Source: an uncultured Candidatus Bathyarchaeia archaeon (lineage in GTDB: Archaea > Thermoproteota > Bathyarchaeia > Bathyarchaeales > Bathyarchaeaceae). Taken from it: 64,000 nucleotides of DNA. A program made the translations under genes and the position numbers. Positions 39,352 to 54,193 of this stretch are shown here, piece after piece. The notes below the pieces were generated by a model, which was given only the letters and a program-made list of their open reading frames with translations, searched no databases and had not been told where the DNA came from. Numbering within the stretch: position 1 is the first letter of the stretch; each line of letters starts with the position of its first letter. Location: NCBI GenBank assembly GCA_964556565.1, contig CAZKWF010000001.1:33035-97034 (forward strand). Reading direction: 5' to 3'.

Positions 39352-41652
39352 TTAAAACGAGGTAAGTTTTGTGGACTCGTAGCCTCTAACTGAATTGTAA
39401 ATGTCCTTTGCGGAATAGCCAAATGGGCTCAAAAGGTTGGAAGCCGCTGAATAGAGGAGAAGAAGGTATTTTTTAATATCTGAACTCATGTTTCCCTCAA
39501 TCAATTCTTCCGCTTTGACCCTTCGTTCGTACCGTTTGTTTTTTGCACTCGTAAAGAGAAATCTAACACTCTTCCCAGCGGAAACCTCTACGCCTTCCTT
39601 CAAAAGTTGTTCGGCTGCAATCACTTGGCTGACTTTCTGCTTATAGCTTTCCAGATTCTTAGAAAGACGCTTAGTAACGATCAAGTCCCAGATAGACACT
39701 TCTCCATCTATCAATCTCTTTCTACATTCCCTAACTACGTTCAAAGCGTCGGGTATTTTCTCAATGAAGACCTTAGAATCACCAGCAGTAGCCAACACTC
39801 TGATCATTTCCATCTGCGCATCATACACGAATTTTGGCGTATCCCTTCTTCTAATCTCTATGCCCCTAACTTTAATTCTCCCATCTTCCTTAACACCGTA
39901 ATAGCGATTCAACACGGCAACGTTAGGGTGCATCTTAGAAGGAAGGAAAACAATCCACTTGTAGCGGCCTTCAAAATTTAGAGGTACTCCAATTTTTGCA
40001 CTTACCTCTCTACATAGGCTGATGTATTCCTGTGTTGTGGCGTCTACCTTCTTGAGCCACAGTGAATCAACGATTCCATGAATTATGCTGAATCCTCTTC
40101 TCTCAGCAATATGAGCGGTCTCCAGAAATGCTTGTCTGCCGAAAGCACAAACACCAATATGGCCGTCAACAGTGCCAAATTTAGCGTTTCTATATCCAAG
40201 GTAGCCGAAGCACGTTACTAGAATCCATTTCAAGGCATCTTGACGTCTTTCATAAACTTCTTTTAACCTCTCATCTTTAGCTTCTCTCTTCAACCTCTTA
40301 TAACGCAACCTTTTTGCAACCGCGAACCTCAAAGTCTTGGGCACGATTCCAATACGTTTCTCGCAGATGTTGTATCCAAGCTCAGGGATACGCAATGGCG
40401 AATCTGGACAACACTTGCAAAGAACAGTTTCAGCTGATATGTTGTTTTTGACCATCAAGGAAGGATACATTGACGAGAAATCTACTTCGCCAACCCAATT
40501 GTGAATGCCCATCCTGGGCTCATAGATAAAGCCTCCGCGGTCTCCAACTAATAGCTCATAGGCAGATTTGAAAGCTTCTGGAATACGTTTATTCCTAGGG
40601 ATCAAAACGTCATCCTTTATTGCTTGGTAGAACTGGAGAGACGACATGCTTGAGCCTATTGAAGATCGTGAAGCTCGATGTAGAGGCACTCTGCAGGTTC
40701 TGGCGATTTCGATAAGTCCTTCAATTCCACACTCGTTGAGAATGAACGTGTTGTTTTCGTCGATGTGAACTCTACCATAAAGTCTCCTCATAGGAGCCCG
40801 ATAGTATGTTCTGCCGTAAGAAAAGAAAGTTGTTCCACGTTTCCGCTTGGCAACAAGAGGTATGTTCGCTCTACTCAGAACAAACCTGTCTAAAACACCG
40901 TTAACCAGCGCCCTTCTTGCAAGATAAGGAAGTACATGCGAGTCACCACCGCTAGTCAACAAAATATCTGGATCAAGTTTCTTAGCAACTTCAACAAACT
41001 GCAGTAGTTTATCTTTCTCGTCACCAGAGTCAAGGATTATTTTCTCGCCATCTTGAAAAACAACTATATCCTCCAATGGGTCATCAAGGTTTGCTATCTT
41101 CCCTTTCTTAGCAATATCAACATGGATTCTCATGATACGCAAAGGCGGAATCTGATAATCAACACTTTCCACAGAGTCTAAAAGCCGATATCTCAACCCA
41201 TGCTTTTCAACCTCGATTTCAACAAAAGCAAGTGGAAAAATATCACGGTCATAAAGATAGGCTTGAGTGCTCCGCAGATCACAGTTGTGCACTTGATAAC
41301 GTAAATATCCACCGATTTCTAGGATTTCACGCACAAAGAATGGAATCCTTCTGCAATCTTTCAATGTAACCTCTAAAACCTTTGACTTTTCAGTATCAAT
41401 TGGATTAGCATATTTGTGAACGAAACTGCATGAGATTATTGATCTGTTAGCAAAGAATCGAGTTGAAAGTCTCTCTATATCTTCTTCTTTGCCGGAAATG
41501 TAGATTTTCGGTTTAAACTCATCTATCAAACGGATTCTTTCGCCATCCTCAGTGATAATCCAAATGCTCATCTGGCCAAATGCTGAAGGATAGAGGTCGA
41601 AAACCCAACCTTTCACATGCTTAAGGTTGACTGCATTACTTTCTGATTGCAT
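39352..41652 (-). CDS. Family-B DNA polymerase, PolB2-like, with degenerate exonuclease motifs and altered motif C
   Basis: 766 aa. Motif A DFSSMYPS is intact. Motif B reads KWILVTCFGYLG. Motif C reads HGIVDS instead of YxDTDS. ExoI reads HVDIA (E lost) and ExoII reads GGDSHVLPYL (FD lost). Confidence 0.85.
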   Translation of the reverse strand: MQSESNAVNLKHVKGWVFDLYPSAFGQMSIWIITEDGERIRLIDEFKPKIYISGKEEDIERLSTRFFANRSIISCSFVHKYANPIDTEKSKVLEVTLKDCRRIPFFVREILEIGGYLRYQVHNCDLRSTQAYLYDRDIFPLAFVEIEVEKHGLRYRLLDSVESVDYQIPPLRIMRIHVDIAKKGKIANLDDPLEDIVVFQDGEKIILDSGDEKDKLLQFVEVAKKLDPDILLTSGGDSHVLPYLARRALVNGVLDRFVLSRANIPLVAKRKRGTTFFSYGRTYYRAPMRRLYGRVHIDENNTFILNECGIEGLIEIARTCRVPLHRASRSSIGSSMSSLQFYQAIKDDVLIPRNKRIPEAFKSAYELLVGDRGGFIYEPRMGIHNWVGEVDFSSMYPSLMVKNNISAETVLCKCCPDSPLRIPELGYNICEKRIGIVPKTLRFAVAKRLRYKRLKREAKDERLKEVYERRQDALKWILVTCFGYLGYRNAKFGTVDGHIGVCAFGRQAFLETAHIAERRGFSIIHGIVDSLWLKKVDATTQEYISLCREVSAKIGVPLNFEGRYKWIVFLPSKMHPNVAVLNRYYGVKEDGRIKVRGIEIRRRDTPKFVYDAQMEMIRVLATAGDSKVFIEKIPDALNVVRECRKRLIDGEVSIWDLIVTKRLSKNLESYKQKVSQVIAAEQLLKEGVEVSAGKSVRFLFTSAKNKRYERRVKAEELIEGNMSSDIKKYLLLLYSAASNLLSPFGYSAKDIYNSVRGYESTKLTSF

Positions 41653-41896
41653 CTAACTTCTTCTCTAGCCTGTTCAAAGTCTTCTGTTGATGTAGGAGAA
41701 TCGACATGACCATGGATTCGAATAGTACAGGACGCGTGGCGTTGCCCCCGGCAGACGCGTAGTTTCTACATGCATCCATCATACGATCAAAAGCTGTTCT
41801 ATCTTCCTTTCGCAGAGCTCTCGCAAATCCACTCCAACTCTGCAATTCTCTATCTAGTGCCATTCGATATGATTCAACTGTTTTTCCCATCTTCAC
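41636..41896 (-). CDS. 86-aa helical hypothetical protein, translationally coupled within the polymerase operon
   Basis: Overlaps the polB start by 17 nt and the upstream RadA-like stop by 4 nt. Confidence 0.55.
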   Translation of the reverse strand: MKMGKTVESYRMALDRELQSWSGFARALRKEDRTAFDRMMDACRNYASAGGNATRPVLFESMVMSILLHQQKTLNRLEKKLDAIRK

Positions 41897-42612
41897 ACCT
41901 TCATGAATCTAGTGAGTGAGCGATTTTCTGAAGGGAAGCGAGCACTTCCTAAGGTGAAAAAAGGATGCTTCTCCAAGAGAAACTGCTGGCCTTGTTTAGA
42001 AGGTTTAATTGATGCTACAGCGTTGGCTCGTCCACAAACTACTGCTTTAAGAAAAATATTCTGCTTTGATGGATAATGAGGGGGGTAAGTAGCAACTACG
42101 ATCGCACGTTTTTCTTCAGCAAACTTTGAGAGAAAGAGGATCACTTTGTTGAAAACATGTCTAGCCTCTCTCTTAGGCACATCCTTGTCAAGATACAAGC
42201 CTGCAATATCTGATATAATAACAAGCTTCGAATTATGTTTCTTAACAGCCGTCTCCATTTTGTCAAGAATTAGAGAAGTCATCTGATAGGCTGTGAATGC
42301 TCTAGAAATGAAGATCCGTTCTAAAACTTCCTTCGGGCCAAGCTTGTGAAGTTGGGCAATATATGAAATGTCATACAATCTGAAAGTGTTGCCCCCGTCG
42401 ACGAACACCACGTTTGTCTCTAAGCCTCCAAGTTGATATGGAAGCTGGGCTCTAACGCAGAGAAGCATTGATAAGGGCAAGATTGTAGAAGCGCCATGAA
42501 GGACAGCAAAGTCGCCTAGGACAAAGCCTGGAAACAAGGCATCTATATTTTTGATGTTGAAAGATAAGCGAAGTTGAGAGGAAACGGTCTCTAACAATGT
42601 GCTTGCTGACAA
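41893..42612 (-). CDS. RadA/RadB-like RecA-fold protein lacking the Walker A lysine
   Basis: 239 aa. Collinear with RadB (NIDALFPGFVLGDFAVLHG, VVFVDGGNTFRL, LVIISDIAGLY), but GxxGxGKT is replaced by HGASTILP. Confidence 0.7.
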   Translation of the reverse strand: MSASTLLETVSSQLRLSFNIKNIDALFPGFVLGDFAVLHGASTILPLSMLLCVRAQLPYQLGGLETNVVFVDGGNTFRLYDISYIAQLHKLGPKEVLERIFISRAFTAYQMTSLILDKMETAVKKHNSKLVIISDIAGLYLDKDVPKREARHVFNKVILFLSKFAEEKRAIVVATYPPHYPSKQNIFLKAVVCGRANAVASIKPSKQGQQFLLEKHPFFTLGSARFPSENRSLTRFMKV

Positions 42613-42775: not shown

Positions 42776-43690
42776 TTGACAGAGTACCTTGTTGGAACAG
42801 GCGGTTGGGCCTACTTCAAAGTTCCGAACAAACTTTCACTAAAAGCTTATTCTGAAAACTTCAACTTTGTAGAAGTGAACTATACCTTTTACAAATATCC
42901 TAGCGCCAAAATGGTGGAGAGATGGCGGCAAATAGTACCTAAGGATTTCACATTCACCGTTAGATGTCATCAAGACCTAACTCATAGAATCGGCTTTGTA
43001 CCAGTAGACCAAGCTTACGCAGTATTCGGTCGGATGATAGGTATATGTAGAATCCTTGACGCTCCCTTTCTACATTTGCTGACACCTGCAAGCTGTGTTC
43101 TCGACCACGTAAAGATAAGACAAGCAGAAGATTTCTTCTCAACAATCGATCTGAAGGGCGTACGCCTTGTTTGGGAAGTAAGAAGCCCCATAACTACGAA
43201 ACTCGTCAATCTTATGGAAGACTTTGGGATAGTCTATTCAGTTGACCTATCAAGGGAACCGCCAGCATACGAATCTGGTGTTATCTACAGCAGGGTTTTC
43301 GGTAAGGGGAAGCACAACCTCTACCAGTTCACTGATGAGGAGCTTGGGGAGATCGATCAGAAAATACTCAAAACTGAAGCGAAAATCGCAGTCATTACAT
43401 ATCATGGTCCACGAATGACAAGCGATGCTTTGAGATTCACGAAATACAAAGAAACAGGGAAATTTCCGCCAGTTACTGCTCACACAGGGATTGAATCAGC
43501 CAAAACAGTTCTTCAAGAGGATGCTAGACTTCCCTCAACAAAAGCAGAACTTGTCAGGCACCAAGGCTGGAAGGTAATCGATCTAGCAGCCGACAAGAGA
43601 GTCCACCTACATGAGTTACTTTCTAAAATACCTGAGAAGACTTACAATAGCATCCAAGAAGTGATTGAAGAATTGGAGGGTATCCAATGA
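42776..43690 (+). CDS. DUF72-family protein (divergent)
   Basis: 304 aa with a TTG start. YLVGTGGWAY...VEVNYTFYKYPS matches the DUF72 N-terminal signature. Confidence 0.75.
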   Translation: MTEYLVGTGGWAYFKVPNKLSLKAYSENFNFVEVNYTFYKYPSAKMVERWRQIVPKDFTFTVRCHQDLTHRIGFVPVDQAYAVFGRMIGICRILDAPFLHLLTPASCVLDHVKIRQAEDFFSTIDLKGVRLVWEVRSPITTKLVNLMEDFGIVYSVDLSREPPAYESGVIYSRVFGKGKHNLYQFTDEELGEIDQKILKTEAKIAVITYHGPRMTSDALRFTKYKETGKFPPVTAHTGIESAKTVLQEDARLPSTKAELVRHQGWKVIDLAADKRVHLHELLSKIPEKTYNSIQEVIEELEGIQ

Positions 43691-44517
43691 GCACAAGCAA
43701 CATTTTGCTAGGCACTTCAGGTTGGAGCTACAGGGAGTGGATAGGACCCTTCTATAGTAAGGGGGAGAAGAGTATGTTGCGTGCTTATGGAAGAGTCTTC
43801 AAAACGGCTGAGATAAATTCCACGTTCTACAGGTACCCTACAGATAAAATGGTCATGGGTTGGACGAGATATAGCCCTGCTGACTTCGTGTTCACGGCGA
43901 AGCTACCTAAGCTTATCACTCATGAGAAGAAACTCGATTTGGAGCAAGGGGTTGAGGAGGATCTTCAAAGATTTTGTGAAACAATGCGAATTCTGCTATT
44001 GAACGGGAAACTTGGGTGTTTGCTCATTCAGTTGCCCCCAAAATACGGGTATGATGTTGACCATTTGGAGTCTTTCTTCAAAATTCTTCCCGCCGACTTC
44101 AAATTTGCCGTGGAATTTCGCAACCTATCGTGGCTACAGAGTGAAACATGGAATTTGCTGAACAGATACAAGGTTGCTTACACCATCGTCGACGAGCCTC
44201 TGTTGCCGCCTGAAATTCACGTAACCTCAAGCTTTGCCTATTTCCGTTGGCACGGAAAGGGTGACAAACCGTGGTTTAACTACAGATATTCAAAGGATGA
44301 GTTGGAGCCTTGGATACCAAAGGTGAAGGAGACTTCTAAGAAAGTCAAGAAGGTATACGGCTATTTTAACAATCATTTCCACGGGTATGCACCTGAGAAC
44401 TGCCTGCAGGTATTGAAAATACTTGGCATGATCGAGTCTGGTCAGCAAGAAGCAATGCGACGCGTCAAAAAACACAGGCAAAAGCCGAAACAGACAACTC
44501 TCGGAGCATTTGGTTAG
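43687..44517 (+). CDS. DUF72-family protein
   Basis: 276 aa. ATGA overlap with the upstream DUF72 gene. About 70% identical by eye to residues 1-270 of the 10894-12096 product. Confidence 0.85.
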   Translation: MSTSNILLGTSGWSYREWIGPFYSKGEKSMLRAYGRVFKTAEINSTFYRYPTDKMVMGWTRYSPADFVFTAKLPKLITHEKKLDLEQGVEEDLQRFCETMRILLLNGKLGCLLIQLPPKYGYDVDHLESFFKILPADFKFAVEFRNLSWLQSETWNLLNRYKVAYTIVDEPLLPPEIHVTSSFAYFRWHGKGDKPWFNYRYSKDELEPWIPKVKETSKKVKKVYGYFNNHFHGYAPENCLQVLKILGMIESGQQEAMRRVKKHRQKPKQTTLGAFG

Positions 44518-45016: not shown

Positions 45017-45757
45017 CTAGGTTCTCTGGAATATCTGCGATAAATCTTCAAAGATTCTTTCATAACGTTTTACTTTTGTGCTTTCCCATCCTTTCTTGAA
45101 ATCCTCTCTGAGAATGTAAACACCATCCAACTCATACTCAGCGATTATTCTGTTTCTGCTTTTCCCGTCAAACGACCCTTTTTTATTCTTACTTATGATG
45201 AAGTCGTCGTCATTATCCGTAGTCGCTAAAAAGACACGGATGTTTTTTGTAACGTCCGATGATACTAGTTTCAACTTCCAATAACATGCTTGTGCTATCC
45301 GCTCTCGCAAGCTTGTCTTACAAGATATTATTGCTATTATATCGGATTTCCAAGGCTCTAAATTCGCAAATTTAACAATAGCTAGATCAGTATCTGGAAG
45401 TAGCAAGTATTCTCCATACTTCACAGCAAGTTTTCTGAGGATAATATCATTCTTTTTTATCTCGTTTTCTTGCAGAACTTCAAAATCCCGAAAGCTCTGG
45501 TCTTGGCTTTTAAGCTTAAGCAGGTACCCTTTGGTGATGGAGTAAATAACTTTTTGAAACTTATTTCCTATGTAACCATGCCAAGATTGTTCTAGGTCTT
45601 TGTCAGGATGAATCTGCCTCAAAACTTCGATGTACTCGTCTTTCAGTTTCTGAATCTCGTCCCATGCTGTCTCAGGAGGCAACTCTCCGGTTTTGACTTG
45701 ACTTATTAAGTTGTCTATCTTTTTTCTTGGGTCTGCTTTCATTTCTTTCCTCTCCAA
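45017..45757 (-). CDS. Type II restriction endonuclease-like PD-(D/E)xK protein
   Basis: 246 aa. LLLPDTDLAIV ... IIAIISCKTSLRERIAQ is a PD...SxK variant with the K-T-S-x-R-E-R tail common in type II REases. Lies 27 nt downstream of the methyltransferase gene. Confidence 0.65.
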   Translation of the reverse strand: MERKEMKADPRKKIDNLISQVKTGELPPETAWDEIQKLKDEYIEVLRQIHPDKDLEQSWHGYIGNKFQKVIYSITKGYLLKLKSQDQSFRDFEVLQENEIKKNDIILRKLAVKYGEYLLLPDTDLAIVKFANLEPWKSDIIAIISCKTSLRERIAQACYWKLKLVSSDVTKNIRVFLATTDNDDDFIISKNKKGSFDGKSRNRIIAEYELDGVYILREDFKKGWESTKVKRYERIFEDLSQIFQRT

Positions 45758-45784
45758 TTGAAGGGTCGACTACTCATTTGACTT

Positions 45785-47038
45785 TTACCTTTCGTATTGG
45801 GTCCACTCAATTTTCCGCGGCTTAGTCCTTTTGATTTTCTCTCCATTTGACTTTCGCATAATAAACAAATATTTGAAGCCTCGTAGAAAGAAGTTGAATC
45901 GTCTTGCACGATTGTACCACAAGCCCGTATGTGATGCTTGTCCTCTTCTGGCTATACATATAATATCGACTGTATCGAAGTGTTTGCATAATCTTTGATA
46001 AACTTTGAACCCTACTGGAGTAAATTGTCTTTTTACCCATTGGTCGCCAATTAGCCATCCAAGTACTTTTCCAGACTTTAGAATCCGATGACATTCTTTC
46101 ATCACCTTTTCAAGCTCATCGTAGAACAGTTCATTTTCACTTGAAATCTTACCTATGCAGTCGGCATGTTCATTATATCTTATGTTATCCCCATATGGAG
46201 AGTCAACGAATACTAGATCTACATGATTACCTGTGAGAGGAATTTTTCGTGAGTCATTTTGAATAATATCAGATCTTACTGGCGCAATATCGTAACCAAT
46301 CACTCTACGACCTTCTTCTTTGCAAACATCAATTGTGGTGCCACTACCGCACATTGGGTCGACTACCAAATCTCCAGGTTCGGTGTATCTCCAAATAATG
46401 TTCCATATAAGTAGAGCAGGTGTCACACCCGGATACTTATTATCCCCTTTGGGATATTTACCGTAGCTTTGTCTAGGAAAATCCCAAAGAGTTGTGGCCT
46501 CCAACAAAGGCAGTTCTTCATGAGGATCTTGGCCAATTTGCTTCACTTCACCTAGTAACTCCCATGATCTAAGTTCCTTTGATACCTCGAGATCTGAACC
46601 TTCGGTTTCTAACAAGAATTGGAACCAGTCGTCCATCCGTAAATTTTTGGGACGATAAAGCTCAAGGAGTTTAATAGTGACTTTCCTGTTCATAGGAGAA
46701 GAACGTTCTATTCCCAATGTTTTCAGCAGTTTCTTTGCGTTTTTTGTTGGTATAATTTTTCCAAGGGGTTCTGCTTTCACCTGATATGGATATTTGCCAT
46801 CCCATGCTTCTGGCTGGATGTTCATCTCTGCATCAGAGGTCGCTCTGAATACACCGTATAGCATGTCAGAGTCCAGATTTAGAAGGAATAAGAAGCTTCC
46901 CTTTCTCACTTTCATTGCAGCGGGCGCATAGAGCCTGTTTGTTCCGAAGAGCAGACGACTGAAGCATTCATTCTCCGATTTATTCGTACATGCAAAAACT
47001 TGTCCATGTATGATTGATTTCTTGGAGAGCTGAAGCAA
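45785..47038 (-). CDS. DCD (PUA-like) domain fused to an N4/N6-type DNA methyltransferase
   Basis: 417 aa. The N-terminus IHGQVFACTNKSENECFSRLLFGTN...GSFLFLLNLDSDMLYGVFRATSDAEMNIQPEAWDGKYPYQVK matches the DCD consensus. The C-terminal half has LVVDPMCGSGTT (motif I) followed by VFVDSPYG (motif IV). Confidence 0.8.
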   Translation of the reverse strand: MLQLSKKSIIHGQVFACTNKSENECFSRLLFGTNRLYAPAAMKVRKGSFLFLLNLDSDMLYGVFRATSDAEMNIQPEAWDGKYPYQVKAEPLGKIIPTKNAKKLLKTLGIERSSPMNRKVTIKLLELYRPKNLRMDDWFQFLLETEGSDLEVSKELRSWELLGEVKQIGQDPHEELPLLEATTLWDFPRQSYGKYPKGDNKYPGVTPALLIWNIIWRYTEPGDLVVDPMCGSGTTIDVCKEEGRRVIGYDIAPVRSDIIQNDSRKIPLTGNHVDLVFVDSPYGDNIRYNEHADCIGKISSENELFYDELEKVMKECHRILKSGKVLGWLIGDQWVKRQFTPVGFKVYQRLCKHFDTVDIICIARRGQASHTGLWYNRARRFNFFLRGFKYLFIMRKSNGEKIKRTKPRKIEWTQYER

Positions 47039-47271: not shown

Positions 47272-48312
47272 ATGAGTTCAAAATTAGGCTTCTCAGAGTG
47301 GCCTTTCCGTACAATCCCAGACGAGGAATTCGTCAAGATATGGTGCGGTCGTAAAGAACTCTACGAAAGATTAGATAGGATATTCAACGGTATTGTCCGA
47401 AGACCGATGTTCCAGATTCATTTGGTGTACGGAGATTTTGGAACAGGGAAAACACACAGTATCAAGCATATGATAACCAAGTACCGTGAAAAGGTTAAGC
47501 TCTTGACGTCAGAGTTAGAATACGATATCACAATTAGGACGTTCACACAGTTATATCAGGCTCTGGTGAGTCGGTTAGACTTCAAAACAATTATAAAGTG
47601 GCCTAATCCCCCAGAAAAGAATTTCTGGCATGATTTTAGGTCTTTTGTTGGAGCAATCAAATCAAAGGACGAAGAAGAAAAAACAATAGCCACGAGATGG
47701 TTTACAGGTGAAGAAAAAAGCAAGAAAGCTCTAAGCAGAATCGGTATCAGAAGCCCTGTAGACAGCGTTGACACAACTATACGTGCATTTTCGCAACTCA
47801 CCAAACTGGCTGGGAGAAACAGATCTGCAGTTGTGTTGTTTATAGACGAGTTCCAACATATTGGCAAGCTCAACAGGAATTGGAAGGAGAGCATCCTGAA
47901 TGGATTAACCAAACTGGTGAACTCAAGCCCAAAGCATTTTTGTCTAATAATCTCGTTCAGACTTAGAATGCCGATGAAAATCCTTTCAATTATCCCGGAG
48001 AGCATGAAAACTAGATTCTCAGGGGATCCATTCATAGAGGTTACAAACTTTTCCAGAGATGAAGCGGAAGAATTCATGAAATGCCTTTTTAGGAAATTTC
48101 GCACTCGTAAATCTGAAGATCCATATCTTCCCTTCACACCCGAAGCTTTTGAAGCAATATTTGCGTTTCTAAAGAAGAGGAATGTAGAGTACAATCCCAG
48201 ATCTTTAATGAAGGTATTCGGATATGTAAGTGAGCGCTTTGAGGATTCCTCCCAAAACCCACCAATTTCTGAAGATTTCACAAAGGTATCATTGTGGTCT
48301 TATCAGGCATAA
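47272..48312 (+). CDS. ORC/Cdc6-like P-loop ATPase (paralog of 52274-53437)
   Basis: 346 aa. CGRKELYERL..., Walker A VYGDFGTGKTHS and Walker B VVLFIDEFQH. Its stop lies 1 nt from the convergent 48314-49351 stop. Confidence 0.7.
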   Translation: MSSKLGFSEWPFRTIPDEEFVKIWCGRKELYERLDRIFNGIVRRPMFQIHLVYGDFGTGKTHSIKHMITKYREKVKLLTSELEYDITIRTFTQLYQALVSRLDFKTIIKWPNPPEKNFWHDFRSFVGAIKSKDEEEKTIATRWFTGEEKSKKALSRIGIRSPVDSVDTTIRAFSQLTKLAGRNRSAVVLFIDEFQHIGKLNRNWKESILNGLTKLVNSSPKHFCLIISFRLRMPMKILSIIPESMKTRFSGDPFIEVTNFSRDEAEEFMKCLFRKFRTRKSEDPYLPFTPEAFEAIFAFLKKRNVEYNPRSLMKVFGYVSERFEDSSQNPPISEDFTKVSLWSYQA

Positions 48313-48313
48313 G

Positions 48314-49351
48314 TCATTCCGGTAAATTGTGTGGATACGTGTATAAACCATCGATTATGGGTGAAAACGCTTCTTTGTCGAAGACAAGATTTGTCGAAGT
48401 AGTATGAACCTCAATCCGACCTCTTAGCCTAGAAAAAATTTCTGGGCCTTCGGGGACTTCTGAAAGATCTCTCCAAATAGGATTCTTCGTTGGAACTTCC
48501 TTTTCAACTGCTGCTATTGATTCCACGAATTTCGGAGCATGACTTGTTATGCAGGAAGTTTCAACTATCCGAGAATTGTAAAGAATTAACACGTTTTGTA
48601 GAAATCGTTTCTGAACTGAGTTATCTTTCGAGAACATGAGGACGGGATCACCACGATAGAGAGGTTGGTTTATGTAGGCGTCTAACATGCCACTAATGAA
48701 GTTTTTCAGTTGTTTTGAATTCAGCTGCATACACACTCTTTCAAGCCGAGCAGCACATATTATTCTATGAAGTTCTGCCAACGCATTTCCCTTGAGTATA
48801 ATCCACAAATGTCCAAGCTTTCCTTTTTTTATTTTCACCACAATCTTCCTGTTTATACTATCTGCTAAACTCGTGATGCAATGTTCGACGAATTTTACAT
48901 ATTTAGGATCGGTCGCATTACGGACCAGCGAGACAATACATTTGTTGTTACTACTTACAATATCGGTAGCCAACCCGCTTCCATACACCGCATCGGATTG
49001 CCAATCCATGATTTCTCCTTTCACTCCTGGTACGAACTCAGGGGATTTAGGGGGATTGTAAAATTCAATAGCGCTGACCGAACATAGATCCTTTGTCTTG
49101 AAAGGCCTCTCTGAAAAAACAACAGTTTCAGGTACCAGAACACTATCTGTAGTTTGTGTGATCAGCCTAGTGCCACAGGATTTCTCTTCATTGCGTAATC
49201 CGACTTTCCGGTATTTTGTGTGCTTACCTATTCCTTCGACACCTAAGACCTTCGCATCTCTTGGAAGTTGGTTCAGAGAAATGACTCCACATCTGGTGAA
49301 AACAAAGCTATCCTTCGAAACTACTACGCCATAGCTCATTTCATATCCCAA
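48314..49351 (-). CDS. Free-standing intein-like protein (degenerate Hint + LAGLIDADG domains)
   Basis: 345 aa. Block-A-like VVSKDSFVFTRCGVISLNQL, LAGLIDADG-like YGSGLATDI and FISGMLDAYI, and terminal IEVHTTSTNLVF...IDGLYTYPHN followed by only 3 residues. The nucleophile and the TxxH His are absent. Confidence 0.55.
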   Translation of the reverse strand: MGYEMSYGVVVSKDSFVFTRCGVISLNQLPRDAKVLGVEGIGKHTKYRKVGLRNEEKSCGTRLITQTTDSVLVPETVVFSERPFKTKDLCSVSAIEFYNPPKSPEFVPGVKGEIMDWQSDAVYGSGLATDIVSSNNKCIVSLVRNATDPKYVKFVEHCITSLADSINRKIVVKIKKGKLGHLWIILKGNALAELHRIICAARLERVCMQLNSKQLKNFISGMLDAYINQPLYRGDPVLMFSKDNSVQKRFLQNVLILYNSRIVETSCITSHAPKFVESIAAVEKEVPTKNPIWRDLSEVPEGPEIFSRLRGRIEVHTTSTNLVFDKEAFSPIIDGLYTYPHNLPE

Positions 49352-49776
49352 GGTATAAAGAAAGTTGGTGAATCTAGGGTACCCTGATAGTCCACTATAC
49401 CTTCTAAAAGAAGATGTGTAAACAAGGTCCTCACTATTAACGATGAATATCCAGTGAGTCGCGAAGCATCTGTGACAGACAACTTCTTTTTCTTGTACAG
49501 CATTTTCATTAACGGTGATAGAATGCTACTTAGATTGTTCTCCTTTGTCGCAAGCGTAAAAAAGGAGTAAGGTCTCTCTTTTTTGCTCAATGCAATATGC
49601 TCGTAGATTTTTCGTTCGATCACCAATTTCTTTATGATTTCATTTACTTCATTTCTTGATGTATCACTTGCTACATTTTGGATAATATGAATCAAATGTG
49701 GTTTGTTCACGATCAATCTTGATCCTATCTGCTCAAAAACGTGTTCCACGATTTTCTTGTAACTGTTGATTGTCAA
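49336..49776 (-). CDS. Small protein with two wHTH-like halves
   Basis: 146 aa. 16-nt overlap with the downstream Hint-like gene. Confidence 0.45.
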   Translation of the reverse strand: MTINSYKKIVEHVFEQIGSRLIVNKPHLIHIIQNVASDTSRNEVNEIIKKLVIERKIYEHIALSKKERPYSFFTLATKENNLSSILSPLMKMLYKKKKLSVTDASRLTGYSSLIVRTLFTHLLLEGIVDYQGTLDSPTFFIPWDMK

Positions 49777-49787
49777 AGTAGTTCAAC

Positions 49788-50831
49788 CTAAAGTTTGATT
49801 CTGAGAAACCTTTTTTCGCCGTATCTGTCTGGAAGTATCTGATACCTATGCCTATCGTTTGTTTGCGCCTCATTTATCATTTCCCTAGCTTCAGATTCCT
49901 TCAGTCTATAACCTTGTAAGCCTTTTTGAATCACCAGTATATTAATCAAAGTGTTTATGTCGCAAACATTGAAAGCTGGGTCACGCAATTTTTCGTACAG
50001 GTTCTCTACATGTTCAATCGTTTCTTGACCTGAAACTATCTTGGTTCCTGGGTATCCACAGTTTCTAAGAAGAGTGTGCAATAGATCCTCCTGCGCTCGT
50101 GAAACAACTGTCTTGTAATTTGGTAAGAATCTAATGATTTCACAGTATGGCCTTACAACGTTTTTCTCTAAGAAGGAAATTCTATTGTTGCTGGGTCCCT
50201 CTCTATTTACAAGGTTCAAGTCTTCCATGATGCCAAGCGAAGGCTTTATCTTTGGATATAACGCCTTGGCGGTTTTTCCTCGTCTAACCGCTTTTCTATA
50301 CAACTTTAGATATCTCCTTCGAATGTCTAGACTATGAACAGACTCGACAGCAATCTTGAGTGCGTGGACGTAGACGGAGAAAGCATGATCAACCAATTCG
50401 TTTTTTGGCAGCATTTTTCTCGCCTTATACCAGCGGTAATCGTCACGGATTTCCCCAAATCTCTCAAGGTGATCGTGAAGCGATTTCACCATAGCATAAT
50501 TCTCCAATAGAAAACATCTCAAAAAAAAGATCTTGAATTCAACGGGAAGCTCTATCGGAATTTCCTCTACTGGTGTGAAAAATTCCAGAGTTCTACCCCA
50601 TGGAGTCAATTTGTTGTTCCTGAAAATCACTTCCAGTTCTTTTGCTATCGTTATTGTGTATTGTATAGACCTTTTATTCTGTTTATATCCTTCTTCAATC
50701 CCATGGATTTTCCTGAAGGAACTCAATGCCTCTCCAAACTTTCGAGCAATCATCATATCAGAACTTGGCTCTCTTGTCTTGACGCATCCCTTGAGAAGCA
50801 GTGCAAAATAGACAATCTTGTCAACTTGCAT
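49788..50831 (-). CDS. Alpha-helical hypothetical protein of the island operon
   Basis: 347 aa with no recognisable motif. Gaps of 11 and 23 nt to the neighbouring genes. Confidence 0.5.
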   Translation of the reverse strand: MQVDKIVYFALLLKGCVKTREPSSDMMIARKFGEALSSFRKIHGIEEGYKQNKRSIQYTITIAKELEVIFRNNKLTPWGRTLEFFTPVEEIPIELPVEFKIFFLRCFLLENYAMVKSLHDHLERFGEIRDDYRWYKARKMLPKNELVDHAFSVYVHALKIAVESVHSLDIRRRYLKLYRKAVRRGKTAKALYPKIKPSLGIMEDLNLVNREGPSNNRISFLEKNVVRPYCEIIRFLPNYKTVVSRAQEDLLHTLLRNCGYPGTKIVSGQETIEHVENLYEKLRDPAFNVCDINTLINILVIQKGLQGYRLKESEAREMINEAQTNDRHRYQILPDRYGEKRFLRIKL

Positions 50832-50854
50832 ATGTGTATTAATAAGAAGAGGCT

Positions 50855-52267
50855 TCAGTACTCTTTTCCACCATGAACGCTTACACGGGGTCTTATTTTG
50901 ATTGTGAATAGTCTGTTGACCGTCTCAGAGGAGATTATGCAGTACCCAAGTTTTAGGTCTCTACCTACCTCTTTAAAGAGATTTCTTTGTATTTCTCTCG
51001 AACCTATCTTTGCTCTTTCGAAATCTGATGTATTTCTCATGTTATATGCAGTCAAGATGTCTTGATCTCTTGATAGGCTATGGATAATTCCGATGTCTAG
51101 ATTCGCCTGAATTGAGGCATCGAGAGCTGAAGGCGATTGTGTGGCGAAAGCAGCAGATAACCCTATGTTCCGACCCTCTTTAACATATTTTAAAAGAGGC
51201 CCTTTTGAAGGCGGACTTCTTGTGGCAGGTATGTAGTTATGTGCTTCATCCATCAGGATCCAACCTCTTGGCGTCCACTCTTTTTTTAGTAAGAGTTGAA
51301 GTTTCTTAATTTCCCCTTTGTAATCAGATGAAGATGACTTGGTTAATAATTCCAATCTCTTCTCACATTCGTCCGTTATACCTCGGGCTTGGAAGATTTT
51401 TCGAGTTAGGACACCAACCACAGTCGTTCTCAACTCTTGTTCTAGATCCCGTAGCAACAAAACTGAGATTTTTCCATCCTTGAATATTTCCCGCACAGGT
51501 ATAGAGAAAGAGCCAAATATTTTTGCCAATTCAAGAGACCGTACTCTTCTAAATGCCGCATCCAAAGTTTTTTGTTCATATCGGTTCTTGGTTGAAGATG
51601 ATTCAAGCTTCGAATAAATATCAGAAAATGAAATTTCATCTTGCTCTTGCAGTGAAGTAATTAGATCCATGAATAGCTGTCCAAGGGGATCGGCTATCGG
51701 ATCTAATCCAAACATAAAACACCAATCTGCAGGTTCAAGATCTTTTAGGCTCAGCGAAAACTCAGTGAACTCAGGCGGATAATAATCCCTCTTGTATCCG
51801 TATGGAAAATAGAAGTCCGCAGGGACTTTTTCCTCCTTAATTCCCCATCTTTCAAGTTCGTTAATTCTCTCTTTTCCCTCCATGCTGGCTAGGTATTGCA
51901 TGCCCCAAAATACGTTGAGGGAATCAAACACTATAACAGCTTGGTGATCCTTCATCTGATTTATCCACTGCTTGCTAACTAGGCCCTCTGCAAGCACACC
52001 TAATGTATAGCTCTTGCCACTACGTCTTTTTCCCATAACGTAAACTATGTGGGCTCTATCAGTGTCCATCCAGACATCACAAGAATTAGTATCATATTCA
52101 TTGGATTTGCCAAGATATATACAAGATGGCGAATCCTCAGATGAGGAGCCAATGATCATGCCAGTTTTGGATGACCATGGCTTTTGTGGCTTAAGTTTTG
52201 GCAGAAAGCGATACCATTGTTCAAAAAGGATTCGTCTGAATTCAGGAATGTTTTCTGGTTTATCCAT
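50855..52267 (-). CDS. HerA/FtsK-superfamily ATPase (DUF87-like)
   Basis: 470 aa. Walker A MGKRRSGKSYTLG and Walker B WILMDEAHNYIP, plus GRNIGLSAAFATQSPSALD and GIIHSLSRDQD, as in HerA-type ATPases. Confidence 0.75.
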   Translation of the reverse strand: MDKPENIPEFRRILFEQWYRFLPKLKPQKPWSSKTGMIIGSSSEDSPSCIYLGKSNEYDTNSCDVWMDTDRAHIVYVMGKRRSGKSYTLGVLAEGLVSKQWINQMKDHQAVIVFDSLNVFWGMQYLASMEGKERINELERWGIKEEKVPADFYFPYGYKRDYYPPEFTEFSLSLKDLEPADWCFMFGLDPIADPLGQLFMDLITSLQEQDEISFSDIYSKLESSSTKNRYEQKTLDAAFRRVRSLELAKIFGSFSIPVREIFKDGKISVLLLRDLEQELRTTVVGVLTRKIFQARGITDECEKRLELLTKSSSSDYKGEIKKLQLLLKKEWTPRGWILMDEAHNYIPATRSPPSKGPLLKYVKEGRNIGLSAAFATQSPSALDASIQANLDIGIIHSLSRDQDILTAYNMRNTSDFERAKIGSREIQRNLFKEVGRDLKLGYCIISSETVNRLFTIKIRPRVSVHGGKEY

Positions 52268-52273
52268 ATCGAT

Positions 52274-53437
52274 CTACTCAACAAAACGTGAGTAAACATA
52301 TGGGGATTTGTCTAAGGCTGCGTTTCCAACAGCATTTGATAAGGCGTCGATCAATCTTCTCGGAGTTAGCTGAGACTCTTCAGTTATGCCTGCCAAAATT
52401 TGTTCCAAAGCTTCTTCAGAAAATGGATAAGTCGAATCATCGACTTTTTCATTTGGTGGGCTTTTAGCTGTCTTTGCTTTAATGTTGCATTTTGGGTCTC
52501 TCACGTATTGTATAACATCCTTCATAAACCTCATGGCATCAGGTTGTTCTAGTGTTGGGATTTCAATCCTGTTTCTCGGCCCTATTCTACTTATCACAGG
52601 CTCTTCGACAACTGTGGTTTCTGTTTCCCACCCACCAGCCTCAGTCGAGATTGACCAAATTACTGAAATGTACTTATTCGATTTGTCTGCCAATCTTAGA
52701 AATCCAAGGTTTAGTGAATCAAGTGCGTCATTGCTCAGGTCTTCCCAGCGTTCACACTCGTCCAACAGAATAATGATTTTCTTTTTCTCATAGGTCTCAA
52801 ACAATTTACCTATTGTTTCTAGCATCTTCACTAACATCTGTGGGTCAGCTTCTTTCAAATGAGAAGATACGCCTAAGTTGCTCAAATCTGAACTTGAGCT
52901 TGTGCTTCCTATCAGCCAGCGCCACACTAGGTTCTCGTCGGCCAAACTAATGCTCAGAACGCTCGCAAGATCATAATTAACTTCCTCAAGTCTCTTGTGG
53001 ATTGCAGCTGCCAGTTCGTCTCGCTTCCATCCAATTTTTTGCTTTATGAAATCTTGTTGTAGCTTTTGGAATAGCGTCAATATTTTTGGCTTACCTATAT
53101 TTTTGAGGATGTGTGCATACAAATCAAGAAACCTTGCATTTCTCGGGAAATCAGGGGCAGAGACGTACACAATCTCCACACCATATGGCGTTTTAGAAAG
53201 AGCTTGCTTAAGAGCAGTCGTCACCGTGAACAGAGTATGTGTCTTTCCTGCCCCATATGTACCAGTGACAAATCGCTTAGGACATCTAGCGGTTACAAGA
53301 TCAACTCGGATCTTTCTGGTTATTGAATCTACGTCGACTCCACTTCGTGGAACGTAAAAACCTGAATCTTTATCAGCGTATATTTCGAAGTTGTTTCTGC
53401 CTTTTTTAAGAGAGTATAGTTCTTGCACTGTAGACAC
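52274..53437 (-). CDS. ORC/BrxC-like P-loop ATPase
   Basis: 387 aa. Walker A TGTYGAGKTHTL and Walker B KIIILLDECERW. Shares the post-P-loop pattern (..F..LY..) with the 47272-48312 product. Confidence 0.7.
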   Translation of the reverse strand: MSTVQELYSLKKGRNNFEIYADKDSGFYVPRSGVDVDSITRKIRVDLVTARCPKRFVTGTYGAGKTHTLFTVTTALKQALSKTPYGVEIVYVSAPDFPRNARFLDLYAHILKNIGKPKILTLFQKLQQDFIKQKIGWKRDELAAAIHKRLEEVNYDLASVLSISLADENLVWRWLIGSTSSSSDLSNLGVSSHLKEADPQMLVKMLETIGKLFETYEKKKIIILLDECERWEDLSNDALDSLNLGFLRLADKSNKYISVIWSISTEAGGWETETTVVEEPVISRIGPRNRIEIPTLEQPDAMRFMKDVIQYVRDPKCNIKAKTAKSPPNEKVDDSTYPFSEEALEQILAGITEESQLTPRRLIDALSNAVGNAALDKSPYVYSRFVE

Positions 53438-53449
53438 AAAACAACCCTT

Positions 53450-54193
53450 CTAGTTGGAAATCTTAAACCTTTTCCAAGTAATAAGACTTGCTAATCTTGC
53501 TTTGGCTTCTCTAAATAATCTATCATCGTATATACAAAGAGAAAGTTCAGGGTTTCTAGAGAAGGTGAGGTTTTCCGAACCCAATAACAGGACTCGATTT
53601 CTCCAAGAATCTATGCTTTGTTCAAGCAAGTAGACCTTGGCATGTACACTTCCATGTAGACTTATTTTTCTAATACCTTGATTCCAGAGCCATCTAAGAG
53701 AGTTCTCAATACTATTTCTTAGATTAGCAGTTGCCGTCTTTTCCGGAGGTCGAGTTATGATCTGAACTCTATGCACCTTCTCCAAACATCTCTTGAAACG
53801 AGATTGATGTTCCTTTCCTATCACAATCCAAGGTGAACAGATCCAAAAACTCTCCAATTTTGGCAATTTTTCCATAAAAGACATGATGAAGTTACAAGCA
53901 TCATTCACCAAACGAGGTTTGCGGCTTTGCCGATGAAAATTCATTAGCGCCTGTAGAGAGCGTTTTCCAAATAGATATCCAAGATGGTAGAACCATTCCT
54001 TACCCTTATCTGTGAGACATACCATATCCTCTTTCACATCAATGAGAAGGGTACCAGACATCTGCTCAATCTGGTCAAACGATAGATTATATGTCGAAAG
54101 CACGCCCGAGAAATACACTCTAGAAACTGGACCGCGTTGAAGAACTGAGCAGATATTTAAGAGAGCTTCAAGACTTGCTGGTTTTGAACTCAT
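53450..54193 (-). CDS. wHTH + single-HKD phospholipase-D-family nuclease
   Basis: 247 aa. FWICSPWI, then LHGSVHAKVYLLE...LLLGSENLT (HxK...GSxN). The N-terminal ~90 aa are wHTH-like. Confidence 0.75.
   Translation of the reverse strand: MSSKPASLEALLNICSVLQRGPVSRVYFSGVLSTYNLSFDQIEQMSGTLLIDVKEDMVCLTDKGKEWFYHLGYLFGKRSLQALMNFHRQSRKPRLVNDACNFIMSFMEKLPKLESFWICSPWIVIGKEHQSRFKRCLEKVHRVQIITRPPEKTATANLRNSIENSLRWLWNQGIRKISLHGSVHAKVYLLEQSIDSWRNRVLLLGSENLTFSRNPELSLCIYDDRLFREAKARLASLITWKRFKISN

What the first reader, a model, noticed from the sequence alone, without database searches (positions are those of the whole stretch)
45017..47038. Type II R-M pair whose methyltransferase carries an N-terminal DCD (PUA-like) domain
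Residues ~10-125 of the 417-aa protein match the DCD consensus closely. The match includes G.vF.C...t..EC....LFG, G..LFL.n.....L.G.F.A.S.....NI.P.AW....YP.QV and ...KLLELY. DCD was defined in plant development/cell-death proteins and belongs to the PUA-like/EVE/YTH/ASCH reader superfamily. Here it is fused to an N4/N6-type methyltransferase with motif I (DPMCGSGTT) preceding motif IV (VDSPYG). A PD...SxK endonuclease gene follows 27 nt downstream. A modified-base reader fused to a methyltransferase suggests methylation that senses the modification state, for example hemimethylated or foreign-modified DNA. I cannot rule out an RNA target.
Basis: partly seen in the sequence, partly recalled or inferred. 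Interest (0 to 1): 0.6.

Follow-up and report, generated by a model that had tools for sequence, protein, structure and literature searches.

The report
Restriction-modification pair with DCD reader domain
This is a small, mobile two-gene DNA defence unit: a cutting enzyme of the BsaWI/CCGG family and a protective methyltransferase that carries an extra "modified-base reader" (DCD) domain. The arrangement was described computationally in 2020, but nobody has yet tested what the reader domain does.

Summary
The 417-aa protein (45785-47038, minus strand) matches Pfam DCD (E 9e-20) and N6_N4_Mtase (E 4e-25). The next gene is a BsaWI-family endonuclease (E 5e-26) that keeps the PD...K and K+4 R-E-R motifs. 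The DCD model (pLDDT 89.5) resembles YTH and EVE reader domains.

New details from this work:
- The methyltransferase core is circularly permuted relative to beta-class enzymes.
- The pair recurs together in 15 of 16 related loci across distant archaeal and bacterial phyla, without shared neighbours, so it is an autonomous mobile Type II R-M module.
- A DCD-less sister methyltransferase (60% identical core) also pairs with a BsaWI-family nuclease, so DCD is an accessory, apparently gained once.

The architecture itself is not new. Bell, Wolf and Koonin (2020) reported frequent DCD-methyltransferase fusions, usually followed by a PD(D/E)XK nuclease.

The most likely mechanism is inferred, not shown: the flexibly tethered DCD binds methylated bases in DNA and biases the enzyme toward already-marked host DNA. 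The methylated base (m4C or m6A), the exact recognition site and the DCD ligand remain unknown.

Verdict: a real but ordinary-to-moderately interesting new member of a published kind.

The parts
45785..47038 (-). DCD-methyltransferase gene, 417 aa. TTG start preceded by an SD-like AAGGGAGA; TAA stop at 45785-45787.
   Evidence: ORF. Pfam DCD + N6_N4_Mtase. An identical 417-aa protein is on record from NCBI (P0001). Residues 10-58 are conserved across homologues, which supports the long ORF. Upstream sequence.
46604..47011 (-). [quoted passage not shown]
   Evidence: PF10539 at E 8.9e-20. AF2 DCD-only model with pLDDT 89.5 and pTM 0.86. Foldseek top hits are YTH m6A readers and EVE domains, E from 1.7e-5, TM 0.5-0.59. 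Invariant residues are E24, F51, L52, G62, F64, A66, W79, Y83, Q86 and P91.
46511..46603 (-). Variable linker, residues 146-176.
   Evidence: This is the least conserved stretch of the 45-sequence alignment. The full-length model has pTM 0.49, and pLDDT falls below 50 from residue 169, so the relative orientation of the two domains is undefined.
45788..46510 (-). Amino-methyltransferase catalytic domain, residues 177-417, circularly permuted relative to beta-class enzymes.
   Evidence: PF01555 at E 4.3e-25. In the PDB alignment to TTHA0409 (2zie), query 185-260 matches chain 198-274 (motif I) and query 272-338 matches chain 40-105 (motif IV). Colinear match to a PADLOC Type II MTase model, PDLC03351.
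46334..46360 (-). Motif I, DPMCGSGTT (AdoMet binding), residues 227-235.
   Evidence: Coordinates. D227, P228, M229, G231, S232, G233, T234 and T235 are invariant and C230 is near-invariant (>=90%) in the family.
46184..46204 (-). Motif IV, DSPYGDN (catalytic), residues 279-285. It aligns with SPPY of TTHA0409.
   Evidence: Coordinates. Invariant. Alignment to 2zie.
45863..45913 (-). Conserved basic C-terminal segment NRARRFNFFLRGFKYLF, residues 376-392. Candidate DNA-contact or target-recognition element (inference).
   Evidence: Near-invariant across 45 homologues. Also present in the DCD-less relatives P0137 and P0139.
45743..45784 (-). Intergenic spacer with an SD-like GGAGAGG ahead of the nuclease ATG.
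   Evidence: Sequence.
45017..45742 (-). BsaWI-family (CCGG-family) Type II restriction endonuclease gene, 241 aa from ATG 45742. The mechanical ORF from TTG 45757 gives 246 aa. Residue numbers quoted in this report use the 246-aa ORF.
   Evidence: PF18643 at E 5e-26. The exact 241-aa product is called in an independent assembly. Conserved downstream of the MTase in related loci.
45386..45400 (-). Nuclease LPDTD segment (P121-D122), the PD of the PD...K active site.
   Evidence: The LPD.D pattern is conserved in every aligned nuclease with this region; the residue between the two aspartates varies (T, A or V) and L012 lacks the region. It corresponds by pattern to BsaWI D145 (PMC4652773).
45299..45319 (-). 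Nuclease K147-T-S-L-R151-E152-R153: the catalytic lysine plus a continuous R-(D/E)-R CCGG-recognition motif at K+4..K+6.
   Evidence: Same spacing as BsaWI K165/R169-D170-R171. K and RER are invariant in the 11-sequence alignment; the three residues between them vary. Coordinates.

Best explanation
A self-contained, horizontally mobile Type II restriction-modification module.

The nuclease is a BsaWI/CCGG-family PD...K enzyme. It is predicted to cut a palindrome with a CCGG (or CCNGG) core.

The methyltransferase is a small, circularly permuted N4-cytosine/N6-adenine amino-methyltransferase. Its core alone is sufficient to protect the host.

The N-terminal DCD domain is an accessory PUA-like (YTH/EVE-like) base-reader, held on a flexible linker of about 30 residues. 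It was gained once by this lineage.

The most likely role of DCD is inferred: it binds a flipped-out methylated base in DNA, most simply the enzyme's own m4C or m6A mark on the parental strand or at nearby sites. This would concentrate the methyltransferase on already-marked host DNA. Re-methylation of hemimethylated sites after replication would be favoured. Accidental protective methylation of unmarked invading DNA would be disfavoured.

Shown here: domain identities, motif integrity, gene linkage, mobility, and the accessory status of DCD.

Inferred: the DCD ligand, the maintenance bias, the methylated base and the exact recognition site.
For: - Domain identities: DCD E 8.9e-20, N6_N4_Mtase E 4.3e-25, RE_BsaWI E 5e-26.
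- The DCD model has pLDDT 89.5. It is structurally closest to YTH m6A readers and to EVE domains, including the modification-dependent nuclease VcaM4I.
- The nuclease keeps PD, K147 and R151-E152-R153 with BsaWI's spacing.
- The nuclease lies directly downstream of the MTase in 10 of 11 genome loci with downstream sequence and in 3 of 3 long metagenome contigs. It is also present in the split variant and in L029.
- The loci span Bathyarchaeia, Asgard archaea, Caldarchaeum, Nitrosopumilales, Methanosarcinales, Thermodesulfovibrio, WOR-3 and Brevinematia. None share the window's other neighbours. The module is therefore autonomous and mobile.
- Accessory status: the DCD-less P0139 (60% identical core) is paired with an intact RE_BsaWI gene. 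Many stand-alone relatives of 240-280 aa exist. In an NJ tree the DCD-bearing enzymes form one clade, with P0139 as sister.
- DCD is under purifying selection but evolves faster than the core: 43-56% identity in most loci (73% in the closest relative) against 67-80% for the core, with ten invariant residues.
- A flexible tether is indicated by full-model pTM 0.49 and a variable linker.
- The Thermodesulfovibrio versions add a separate HTH in front of DCD, so DCD is unlikely to be the transcriptional regulator.
- Published context: prokaryotic DCD is otherwise fused to McrB-like and PD(D/E)XK modules of modification-dependent restriction systems (PMC7641849). This supports the idea that DCD binds modified bases.
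Against: - No ligand of any DCD domain has been determined in the literature I could search.
- A strictly maintenance-type enzyme would be hard to reconcile with the wide horizontal spread, because establishment in a new host needs de novo methylation. Any bias must be partial.
- Reader and catalytic domain would both need to flip bases within one 4-6 bp site, which may be sterically awkward. Binding neighbouring sites is an ad hoc way around this.
- The window shows only modest CCGG depletion (O/E 0.72), weaker than for GGCC, and no depletion of any CCGG-core hexamer. The predicted specificity therefore has no independent support.
- BsaWI's second acidic residue (D175, K+10) has no counterpart: the nuclease has A157 at that position.
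Confidence: 0.45

Rival explanations
1. The Bell-Wolf-Koonin hypothesis. DCD recognises a different, pre-existing modification, such as another host mark or a phage hypermodification. It directs the methyltransferase to add a supplementary methyl group to such DNA, which the linked nuclease would otherwise cut.
For: The authors who first described the architecture proposed this (PMC7641849). DCD relatives sit in Type IV-like systems that sense foreign modifications. DCD evolves faster than the catalytic core, as arms-race sensors do.
Against: The DCD-less sister system with the same nuclease family appears complete, so no second modification is needed for protection. The module works in hosts from at least eight distant phyla, which are unlikely to share one additional modification. 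DCD keeps ten invariant residues across these hosts, which suggests one constant ligand.
Confidence: 0.2
2. DCD does not read modifications here. It is a generic nucleic-acid-binding or base-flipping helper (a DNA clamp, or part of the target-recognition apparatus). It raises the affinity or processivity of a minimal methyltransferase core, perhaps in thermophilic hosts.
For: The core is very small, with no obvious separate target-recognition domain. Relatives carry other DNA-binding add-ons at the N-terminus, such as ParB_N in P0209. Many loci come from hot-spring MAGs. Some PUA-like domains bind unmodified nucleic acid (my own knowledge).
Against: The stand-alone cores and the DCD-less P0139 system manage without it. 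The best structural matches are dedicated modified-base readers. Its published prokaryotic contexts are modification-dependent systems.
Confidence: 0.2
3. DCD is a regulatory module. It senses the methylation state of DNA, or free methylated nucleotides, and uses this to time or limit methyltransferase activity or operon expression. In this it would replace the controller proteins or N-terminal HTH autoregulators of other R-M systems.
For: In other CCGG-family systems (SsoII and Ecl18kI; my own knowledge) the extra N-terminal region of the methyltransferase autoregulates the operon. A PUA-family domain was recently reported to bind free m6-dAMP as a signal (preprint 10.64898/2026.01.15.699771, abstract seen).
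Against: No CCGG or CCNGG site is conserved upstream of the gene in 15 loci. The Thermodesulfovibrio-lineage proteins add a dedicated HTH_17/MerR-type domain in front of DCD, which implies that DCD does not supply promoter binding.
Confidence: 0.08
4. The enzyme methylates RNA (tRNA or rRNA, Trm11-like) and the adjacent nuclease is unrelated.
For: The full-length model's top Foldseek hits include Trm11 and Bud23. There are weak UPF0020 and TIGR01177 hits. YTH domains read RNA m6A. A distant relative, P0143, sits next to a pseudouridine synthase gene.
Against: PF01555 and the REBASE-derived PADLOC Type II MTase models score far higher (E 4e-25 and 3e-21) than any RNA-MTase model (about 1e-5). 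The BsaWI-family nuclease is conserved next to the gene in 15 of 16 loci. The Foldseek hits reflect only the shared linear Rossmann topology.
Confidence: 0.03

Closest known systems
DCD-methyltransferase + PD(D/E)XK nuclease modules described in silico by Bell, Wolf and Koonin 2020 (BMC Biol 18:159, PMC7641849)
   Same: [quoted passage not shown]
   Different: The paper's text does not assign the nuclease to the BsaWI/CCGG family. It does not note the permuted motif order, the DCD-less sister system, or the split and HTH-bearing variants. It proposes that DCD reads a different modification. No experiments exist either way.
BsaWI (W/CCGGW) and the CCGG-family Type IIP/IIF endonucleases (NgoMIV, Bse634I, Cfr10I, SgrAI, Ecl18kI, PspGI, EcoRII-C)
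   Same: Pfam RE_BsaWI match at E 5e-26. PD...K active-site variant in which S replaces the usual acidic residue before K. Continuous R-E-R motif at K+4..K+6, as in BsaWI R169-D170-R171.
   Different: No detectable pairwise similarity to any PDB chain by phmmer. BsaWI's D175 (K+10) has no acidic counterpart: the nuclease has A157. The N-terminal region is unrelated by sequence. Outer-base specificity and oligomeric state are unknown.
Beta-class N4-cytosine/N6-adenine DNA methyltransferases (TTHA0409, CcrM, M.RsrI, M.MboIIA, M.PvuII, rotifer N4CMT)
   Same: Best sequence relatives among solved structures. They share the motif I region, including the xP(A/G)xxP loop, and a motif IV of the (D/S)PPY type.
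   Different: The motif order is reversed (I then IV), so the topology is linear as in gamma-class and Trm11-type enzymes. Motif IV is DSPY rather than DPPY or SPPY. There is no inserted target-recognition domain. A DCD domain has been added.
Modification-dependent (Type IV) enzymes with PUA-like sensors: EVE-HNH VcaM4I, YTH-McrB of Thermococcus gammatolerans, DCD-McrB and DCD-PD(D/E)XK fusions
   Same: The same reader fold. All are placed in defence contexts.
   Different: Here it is fused to the writer of a protective mark, so the logic is reversed.
Eukaryotic reader-writer maintenance logic (UHRF1 SRA domain with DNMT1; SRA-SET SUVH enzymes). Analogy only, from my own knowledge.
   Same: A PUA-like base-flipping reader is coupled to a methyltransferase, so existing marks promote new marks.
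   Different: There is no homology of the catalytic parts. The marks differ (5mC versus m4C or m6A). In this system the coupling is only hypothesised.

Membership tests
DCD / Dev_Cell_Death domain (PF10539), PUA-like superfamily | Significant match to the Pfam DCD profile above the gathering score | tested here: met
   71.2 bits against a cutoff of 27.8, E 8.9e-20, residues 12-99. Also met in homologues L003, L005, L007 and L012.
DCD / Dev_Cell_Death domain (PF10539), PUA-like superfamily | [quoted passage not shown] | tested here: met
   The AF2 model (pLDDT 89.5) has E12-17, H19-28, E30-33, H35-41, E49-54, E59-66 and E85-91. Foldseek gives probability 1.0 to YTH and EVE structures, TM 0.5-0.59. 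hhalign against four EVE sequences is only weak: 48.6% probability, E 1.8e-4.
DCD / Dev_Cell_Death domain (PF10539), PUA-like superfamily | Binds a modified base in a dedicated pocket | not testable with these tools
   No model coordinates were available. No DCD ligand is reported in the searched literature.
N6_N4 amino-methyltransferases (PF01555) | Profile match above the gathering score, with an AdoMet-binding motif I | tested here: met
   89.4 bits against a cutoff of 26.7. DPMCGSGTT is conserved throughout the family.
N6_N4 amino-methyltransferases (PF01555) | Catalytic motif IV of type (D/N/S)-P-P-(Y/F/W) | tested here: inconclusive
   The motif is D-S-P-Y, invariant, and aligns with SPPY of TTHA0409. 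Serine replaces the first proline. By convention (my own knowledge) the first-position D favours N6-adenine and S favours N4-cytosine, so the target base cannot be called.
Beta-class motif order (IV...TRD...I) | Motif IV lies N-terminal to motif I | tested here: not met
   Motif I (185-260) precedes motif IV (272-338) when aligned to TTHA0409. The enzyme is a circular permutation and should not be filed as beta-class.
Type II restriction-modification system | Adjacent, co-oriented methyltransferase and endonuclease genes whose linkage is conserved | tested here: met
   42-nt (or 27-nt) gap on the same strand. The nuclease lies next to the MTase in 15 of 16 related loci. The module moves without other neighbours.
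Type II restriction-modification system | Methylation of the recognition site blocks cleavage by the partner | not testable with these tools
   Requires biochemistry.
BsaWI / CCGG-family endonucleases (PF18643) | Profile match above the gathering score | tested here: met
   91.3 bits against a cutoff of 26.2, E 5e-26, residues 106-216.
BsaWI / CCGG-family endonucleases (PF18643) | PD...K active-site variant with a continuous R-(D/E)-R recognition motif four residues after the lysine | tested here: met
   P121-D122, K147 and R151-E152-R153. K and RER are invariant in 11 nucleases. Compare BsaWI D145, K165 and R169-D170-R171.
BsaWI / CCGG-family endonucleases (PF18643) | Second acidic catalytic residue (BsaWI D175 at K+10; E at K+13/14 in NgoMIV/Ecl18kI) | tested here: not met
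   K+10 is A157, K+13 is W and K+14 is K. The second acidic residue must lie elsewhere, or the active site differs.
MADS (methylation-associated defence system) | A multi-gene mad1-mad8 set including a mad2 methyltransferase | tested here: not met
   Only generic similarity of the MTase to mad2 (E 4.7e-11, weaker than the Type II models), plus a mad8-like hit on the neighbouring HerA-like ATPase. The other neighbours hit no mad models. The R-M pair occurs without these neighbours elsewhere.

The most novel reading that the evidence does not exclude
The DCD domain reads the enzyme's own m4C or m6A mark. This would make the system a prokaryotic 'read-write' maintenance methyltransferase inside a Type II R-M system: a compact analogue of UHRF1-DNMT1 that sharpens self/non-self discrimination by keeping the methyltransferase on already-marked DNA. 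It would also give the first defined ligand for a DCD domain, with consequences for plant DCD cell-death proteins.
Probability: 0.3. Interest if true: 0.7.

Novelty: new member of a known kind. Interest (0 to 1): 0.35.

Why it matters
If the DCD domain really reads methylated bases and biases its own methyltransferase, this would be a simple, experimentally tractable example of epigenetic "maintenance" logic in a two-gene prokaryotic system. It would also explain how some R-M systems might reduce phage escape through accidental methylation. Determining its ligand would give the first biochemical function for the DCD domain, which in plants is tied to development and cell death but has no known ligand. 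As it stands, the locus is a clean, compact representative of a family that was already noted computationally in 2020. The value added here is a sharper description: a BsaWI/CCGG-family partner, a permuted core, a single gain of DCD, and a DCD-less sister system that serves as a natural control for experiments.

Tried and rejected
1. The word-indexed homology search with the DCD domain alone returned only 15 fragments of the same family and no other architectures.
2. A profile search of the DCD alignment against PDB sequences found nothing, even at E 10.
4. Foldseek with the full-length model returned generic class-I methyltransferases, including Trm11. It did not discriminate DNA from RNA targets.
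5. Palindrome avoidance in the window: CCGG has O/E 0.72 (z -3.2), but GGCC and GATC are at least as depleted and no CCGG-core hexamer is avoided. This is too weak to support a specificity call.
6. A search for a conserved CCGG or CCNGG site upstream of the MTase gene, as a sign of methylation-sensing autoregulation, found none in 15 loci.
7. No close relative of either gene was found on annotated plasmids or in viral contigs, so the transfer vehicle is unknown.
8. The apparently DCD-less closest relative, P0137, turned out to be a split form with a separate 112-aa DCD ORF. I do not count it as proof that DCD works in trans. Its nuclease has REH instead of RER, the look-up is by exact protein identity (so the four samples need not be independent lineages), and it may be a decaying copy.
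9. Membership of MADS, or a functional tie to the neighbouring PLD/ATPase cluster, was considered and rejected as obligatory.
10. The BsaWI paper and a 2026 hot-spring methylome preprint gave no information on the cognate methyltransferase type for this family.
Full report
**Observation**

Two co-oriented ORFs lie on the minus strand at 45785-47038 (417 aa) and 45017-45757 (246 aa).

- The first matches Pfam Dev_Cell_Death (PF10539; E 8.9e-20; 71.2 bits against a gathering score of 27.8; residues 12-99). It also matches N6_N4_Mtase (PF01555; E 4.3e-25).
- The second matches RE_BsaWI (PF18643; E 5e-26).
- Motif I (DPMCGSGTT, residues 227-235) precedes motif IV (DSPYGDN, residues 279-285).

There is one small correction. 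A Shine-Dalgarno-like GGAGAGG sits just before the ATG at 45742. The 241-aa ATG-start product is the one on record in an independent assembly, whereas the TTG-start protein is not on record. The nuclease therefore probably starts 42 nt, not 27 nt, after the methyltransferase stop codon.

**The methyltransferase**

Its best relatives among solved structures are beta-class amino-methyltransferases: TTHA0409, CcrM, a rotifer N4-cytosine MTase, M.RsrI, M.MboIIA and M.PvuII. The alignment to TTHA0409 is out of order, however. Query 185-260 matches chain 198-274 (the motif I region), and query 272-338 matches chain 40-105 (the motif IV region). The enzyme is thus a circular permutation of the beta-class arrangement, with a linear I-to-IV topology. 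This explains why the full-length AlphaFold model mostly hits generic class-I methyltransferases, including Trm11.

REBASE-derived PADLOC Type II MTase models match at up to E 3e-21, one of them colinearly. RNA-methyltransferase models reach only about 1e-5.

Motif IV is D-S-P-Y, invariant in 45 homologues. By the usual convention (my own knowledge: DPPY for N6-adenine, SPPY for N4-cytosine) the target base cannot be called.

**The nuclease**

The BsaWI paper (PMC4652773) gives the active site as E92, D145, K165 and D175, and a continuous R169-D170-R171 motif that reads CCGG. The window protein has P121-D122, S145-C146-K147 and R151-E152-R153, which places R-E-R at K+4..K+6 exactly as in BsaWI. 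The lysine and R-E-R are invariant in an alignment of eleven nucleases from related loci, and the LPD.D pattern is kept in every sequence that covers that region. There is no acidic residue at K+10, K+13 or K+14, so the second catalytic carboxylate is unassigned.

I infer a CCGG-core (or CCNGG-core) palindromic target. The outer bases are unknown.

Two nuclease subtypes exist, about 35% identical to each other. They do not track the methyltransferase tree. L001's methyltransferase is the closest to the window's (71%), yet it carries the other nuclease subtype. This suggests partner exchange within a single specificity.

**The DCD domain**

[quoted passage not shown] Its best PDB matches are YTH m6A readers (Pho92, MRB1, YTHDF1-3, YTHDC1) and EVE domains (PH1033, MJECL36 and the EVE-HNH nuclease VcaM4I), with E from 1.7e-5 and TM 0.5-0.59. 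A shallow profile-profile comparison with four EVE sequences taken from the Bell et al. supplement is weakly positive: 48.6% probability, E 1.8e-4.

In the full-length model the inter-domain geometry is undefined (pTM 0.49), and residues 146-176 are the least conserved stretch. This fits a flexible tether.

**Distribution and linkage**

The word-indexed search found 2,767 homologues. The best 120 clusters all carry DCD plus N6_N4_Mtase at 65% identity or more.

A scan of one genome per species returned 12 loci. They come from Bathyarchaeia, Promethearchaeota, Caldarchaeum, Nitrosopumilales, Methanosarcinales, Thermodesulfovibrio/Thermodesulfovibrionales, WOR-3, Brevinematia and unclassified bacteria.

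| Part | Identity to the window protein |
|---|---|
| Catalytic domain | 67-80% |
| DCD domain | 43-56% (73% in the closest relative, L001) |
| Nuclease | 34-41% (63% in L009 and L010) |

The nuclease lies immediately downstream in 10 of the 11 loci that have downstream sequence. L008 is an orphan, and L011 and L012 carry decayed copies. It is also downstream in three further members on long contigs, in the split variant and in L029. That makes 15 of 16 loci, not all of them independent.

None of the window's other neighbours accompany the pair elsewhere. No close relative was found on plasmids or in viral contigs. This is an autonomous, horizontally mobile two-gene module.

**DCD is an accessory**

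An exhaustive search with the catalytic domain alone found many stand-alone relatives of 240-280 aa (42-52% identical). Only one full-length 50%-identity cluster carried DCD.

- The closest apparently DCD-less protein, P0137, is in fact a split form. A 112-aa DCD ORF overlaps the methyltransferase start, and a BsaWI-family gene follows. Its nuclease reads REH instead of RER, so it may be decaying.
- P0139 (60% identical core, no DCD) is paired with an intact BsaWI-family nuclease in the opposite gene order.
- In a neighbour-joining tree of catalytic domains (no bootstrap), all DCD-bearing enzymes form one clade. The split form is basal to it and P0139 is its sister.

The simplest reading is that an existing system, a permuted methyltransferase plus a BsaWI-like nuclease, acquired DCD once and kept it through extensive inter-phylum transfer.

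In the Thermodesulfovibrio lineage a further HTH_17/MerR-type domain precedes DCD.

**Mechanism**

Shown here: domain identities, intact catalytic and recognition motifs, conserved linkage, mobility, and the dispensability of DCD for the basic R-M function.

Inferred: DCD binds a methylated base flipped out of DNA. I favour the enzyme's own product as the ligand, for three reasons. The module functions in hosts too diverse to share any other modification. DCD keeps ten invariant residues across those hosts. Its structural neighbours read exactly the kinds of exocyclic N-methyl marks that an N4/N6 methyltransferase writes.

Tethering the writer to marked DNA would speed re-methylation of hemimethylated sites. 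It would also hold the enzyme on the host chromosome, which would lower adventitious protection of incoming DNA. The bias cannot be absolute, because establishment after transfer needs de novo activity.

Rivals and my estimates:
- DCD reads a different modification, as Bell et al. proposed: 0.2.
- DCD is a generic DNA-binding helper: 0.2.
- DCD is a regulatory sensor: 0.08. This is weakened by the absence of conserved upstream sites and by the separately added HTH.
- The enzyme targets RNA: 0.03.

**Comparison with what is known**

[quoted passage not shown] The kind is therefore published. I found no later experimental work.

This locus is a new member of that kind. What this analysis adds:
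- assignment of the nuclease to the BsaWI/CCGG family, with intact recognition motifs;
- the permuted methyltransferase topology;
- the single-gain scenario, with a DCD-less sister system;
- the split and HTH-bearing variants;
- the breadth of horizontal spread.

**Context**

The pair sits at one end of a defence island, at about 45.0-54.2 kb. The island holds a PLD-like nuclease, two BrxC/D-like ATPases, a HerA/mad8-like ATPase and three unknown proteins. That neighbouring cluster is itself conserved as a unit in other metagenomes. It lies next to the DCD R-M pair again in L029, but at the opposite end. It occurs without a methyltransferase at its PLD end in L027 and L028. I read this as island co-location, not a functional dependency.

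**Verdict**

The novelty is modest, because the architecture is published. The mechanism of the reader domain is open and readily testable.

Noticed in passing
window 47272-54193 (genes at 53450-54193, 52274-53437, 50855-52267, 49788-50831, 49336-49776 and 48314-49351 on the minus strand; 47272-48312 on the plus strand); also L026, L027, L028, L029: Next to the R-M pair is a cluster that is conserved as a syntenic unit (60-92% identity) in four metagenome contigs. Its order is: PLD-like nuclease, BrxC/D/KAP-like ATPase, HerA/mad8-like ATPase, a 347-aa unknown (weak DUF7745 hit), a 146-aa HTH-like protein and a 345-aa unknown, plus a divergent BrxC/D-like ATPase. It matches no complete known defence system in PADLOC; there are only partial mad8, DrmC and SngB hits. 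It looks like an uncharacterised multi-gene defence system. In L029 the DCD R-M pair abuts it at the opposite end from its position in the window.
   Followed up: partly
L005 217-1623 and L007 5713-7182 (Thermodesulfovibrio lineage): A three-domain variant of the methyltransferase: an HTH_17/MerR-type helix-turn-helix (E about 1e-13), then DCD, then the MTase. The promoters of both loci contain a repeated TGTTGAYTAATGTTG-like element that could be the HTH operator.
   Followed up: partly
L013 1683-3509 (also L014-L016): A split variant. A separate 112-aa DCD ORF overlaps the start of a 282-aa methyltransferase ORF by 31 nt, at an AAAAGGGGTAAAAA stretch. The same protein occurs in assemblies from four samples. 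The linked nuclease has REH instead of the RER recognition motif. This could be a functional two-polypeptide form, a frameshift site, or a decaying system.
   Followed up: partly
P0146 (627 aa) and P0209 (692 aa), relatives of the catalytic core: Other add-ons occur on the same permuted methyltransferase core: a LAGLIDADG-type insertion suggestive of an intein (P0146) and an N-terminal ParB_N domain (P0209).
   Followed up: no
window, whole 64 kb: GGCC (O/E 0.57, z -6.2) and GATC (O/E 0.72, z -5.9) are more strongly under-represented than CCGG. This hints at past or present pressure from HaeIII-like and MboI/DpnII-like restriction systems in this organism.
   Followed up: no
window 42776-43690 and 43687-44517 (+): Two tandem, overlapping paralogous genes lie directly beside the R-M pair (the second is DUF72, E 1e-63). 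Beyond them are a RadA/KaiC-like ATPase (41893-42612) and a family-B-like DNA polymerase (39352-41652), so the island is embedded in housekeeping DNA of a probable archaeon. No tRNA gene or Rfam match occurs anywhere in the 64 kb.
   Followed up: no
L008 6001-7116 (Nitrosopumilales MAG): An orphan DCD-methyltransferase with no BsaWI-family gene in the 2 kb downstream.
   Followed up: partly
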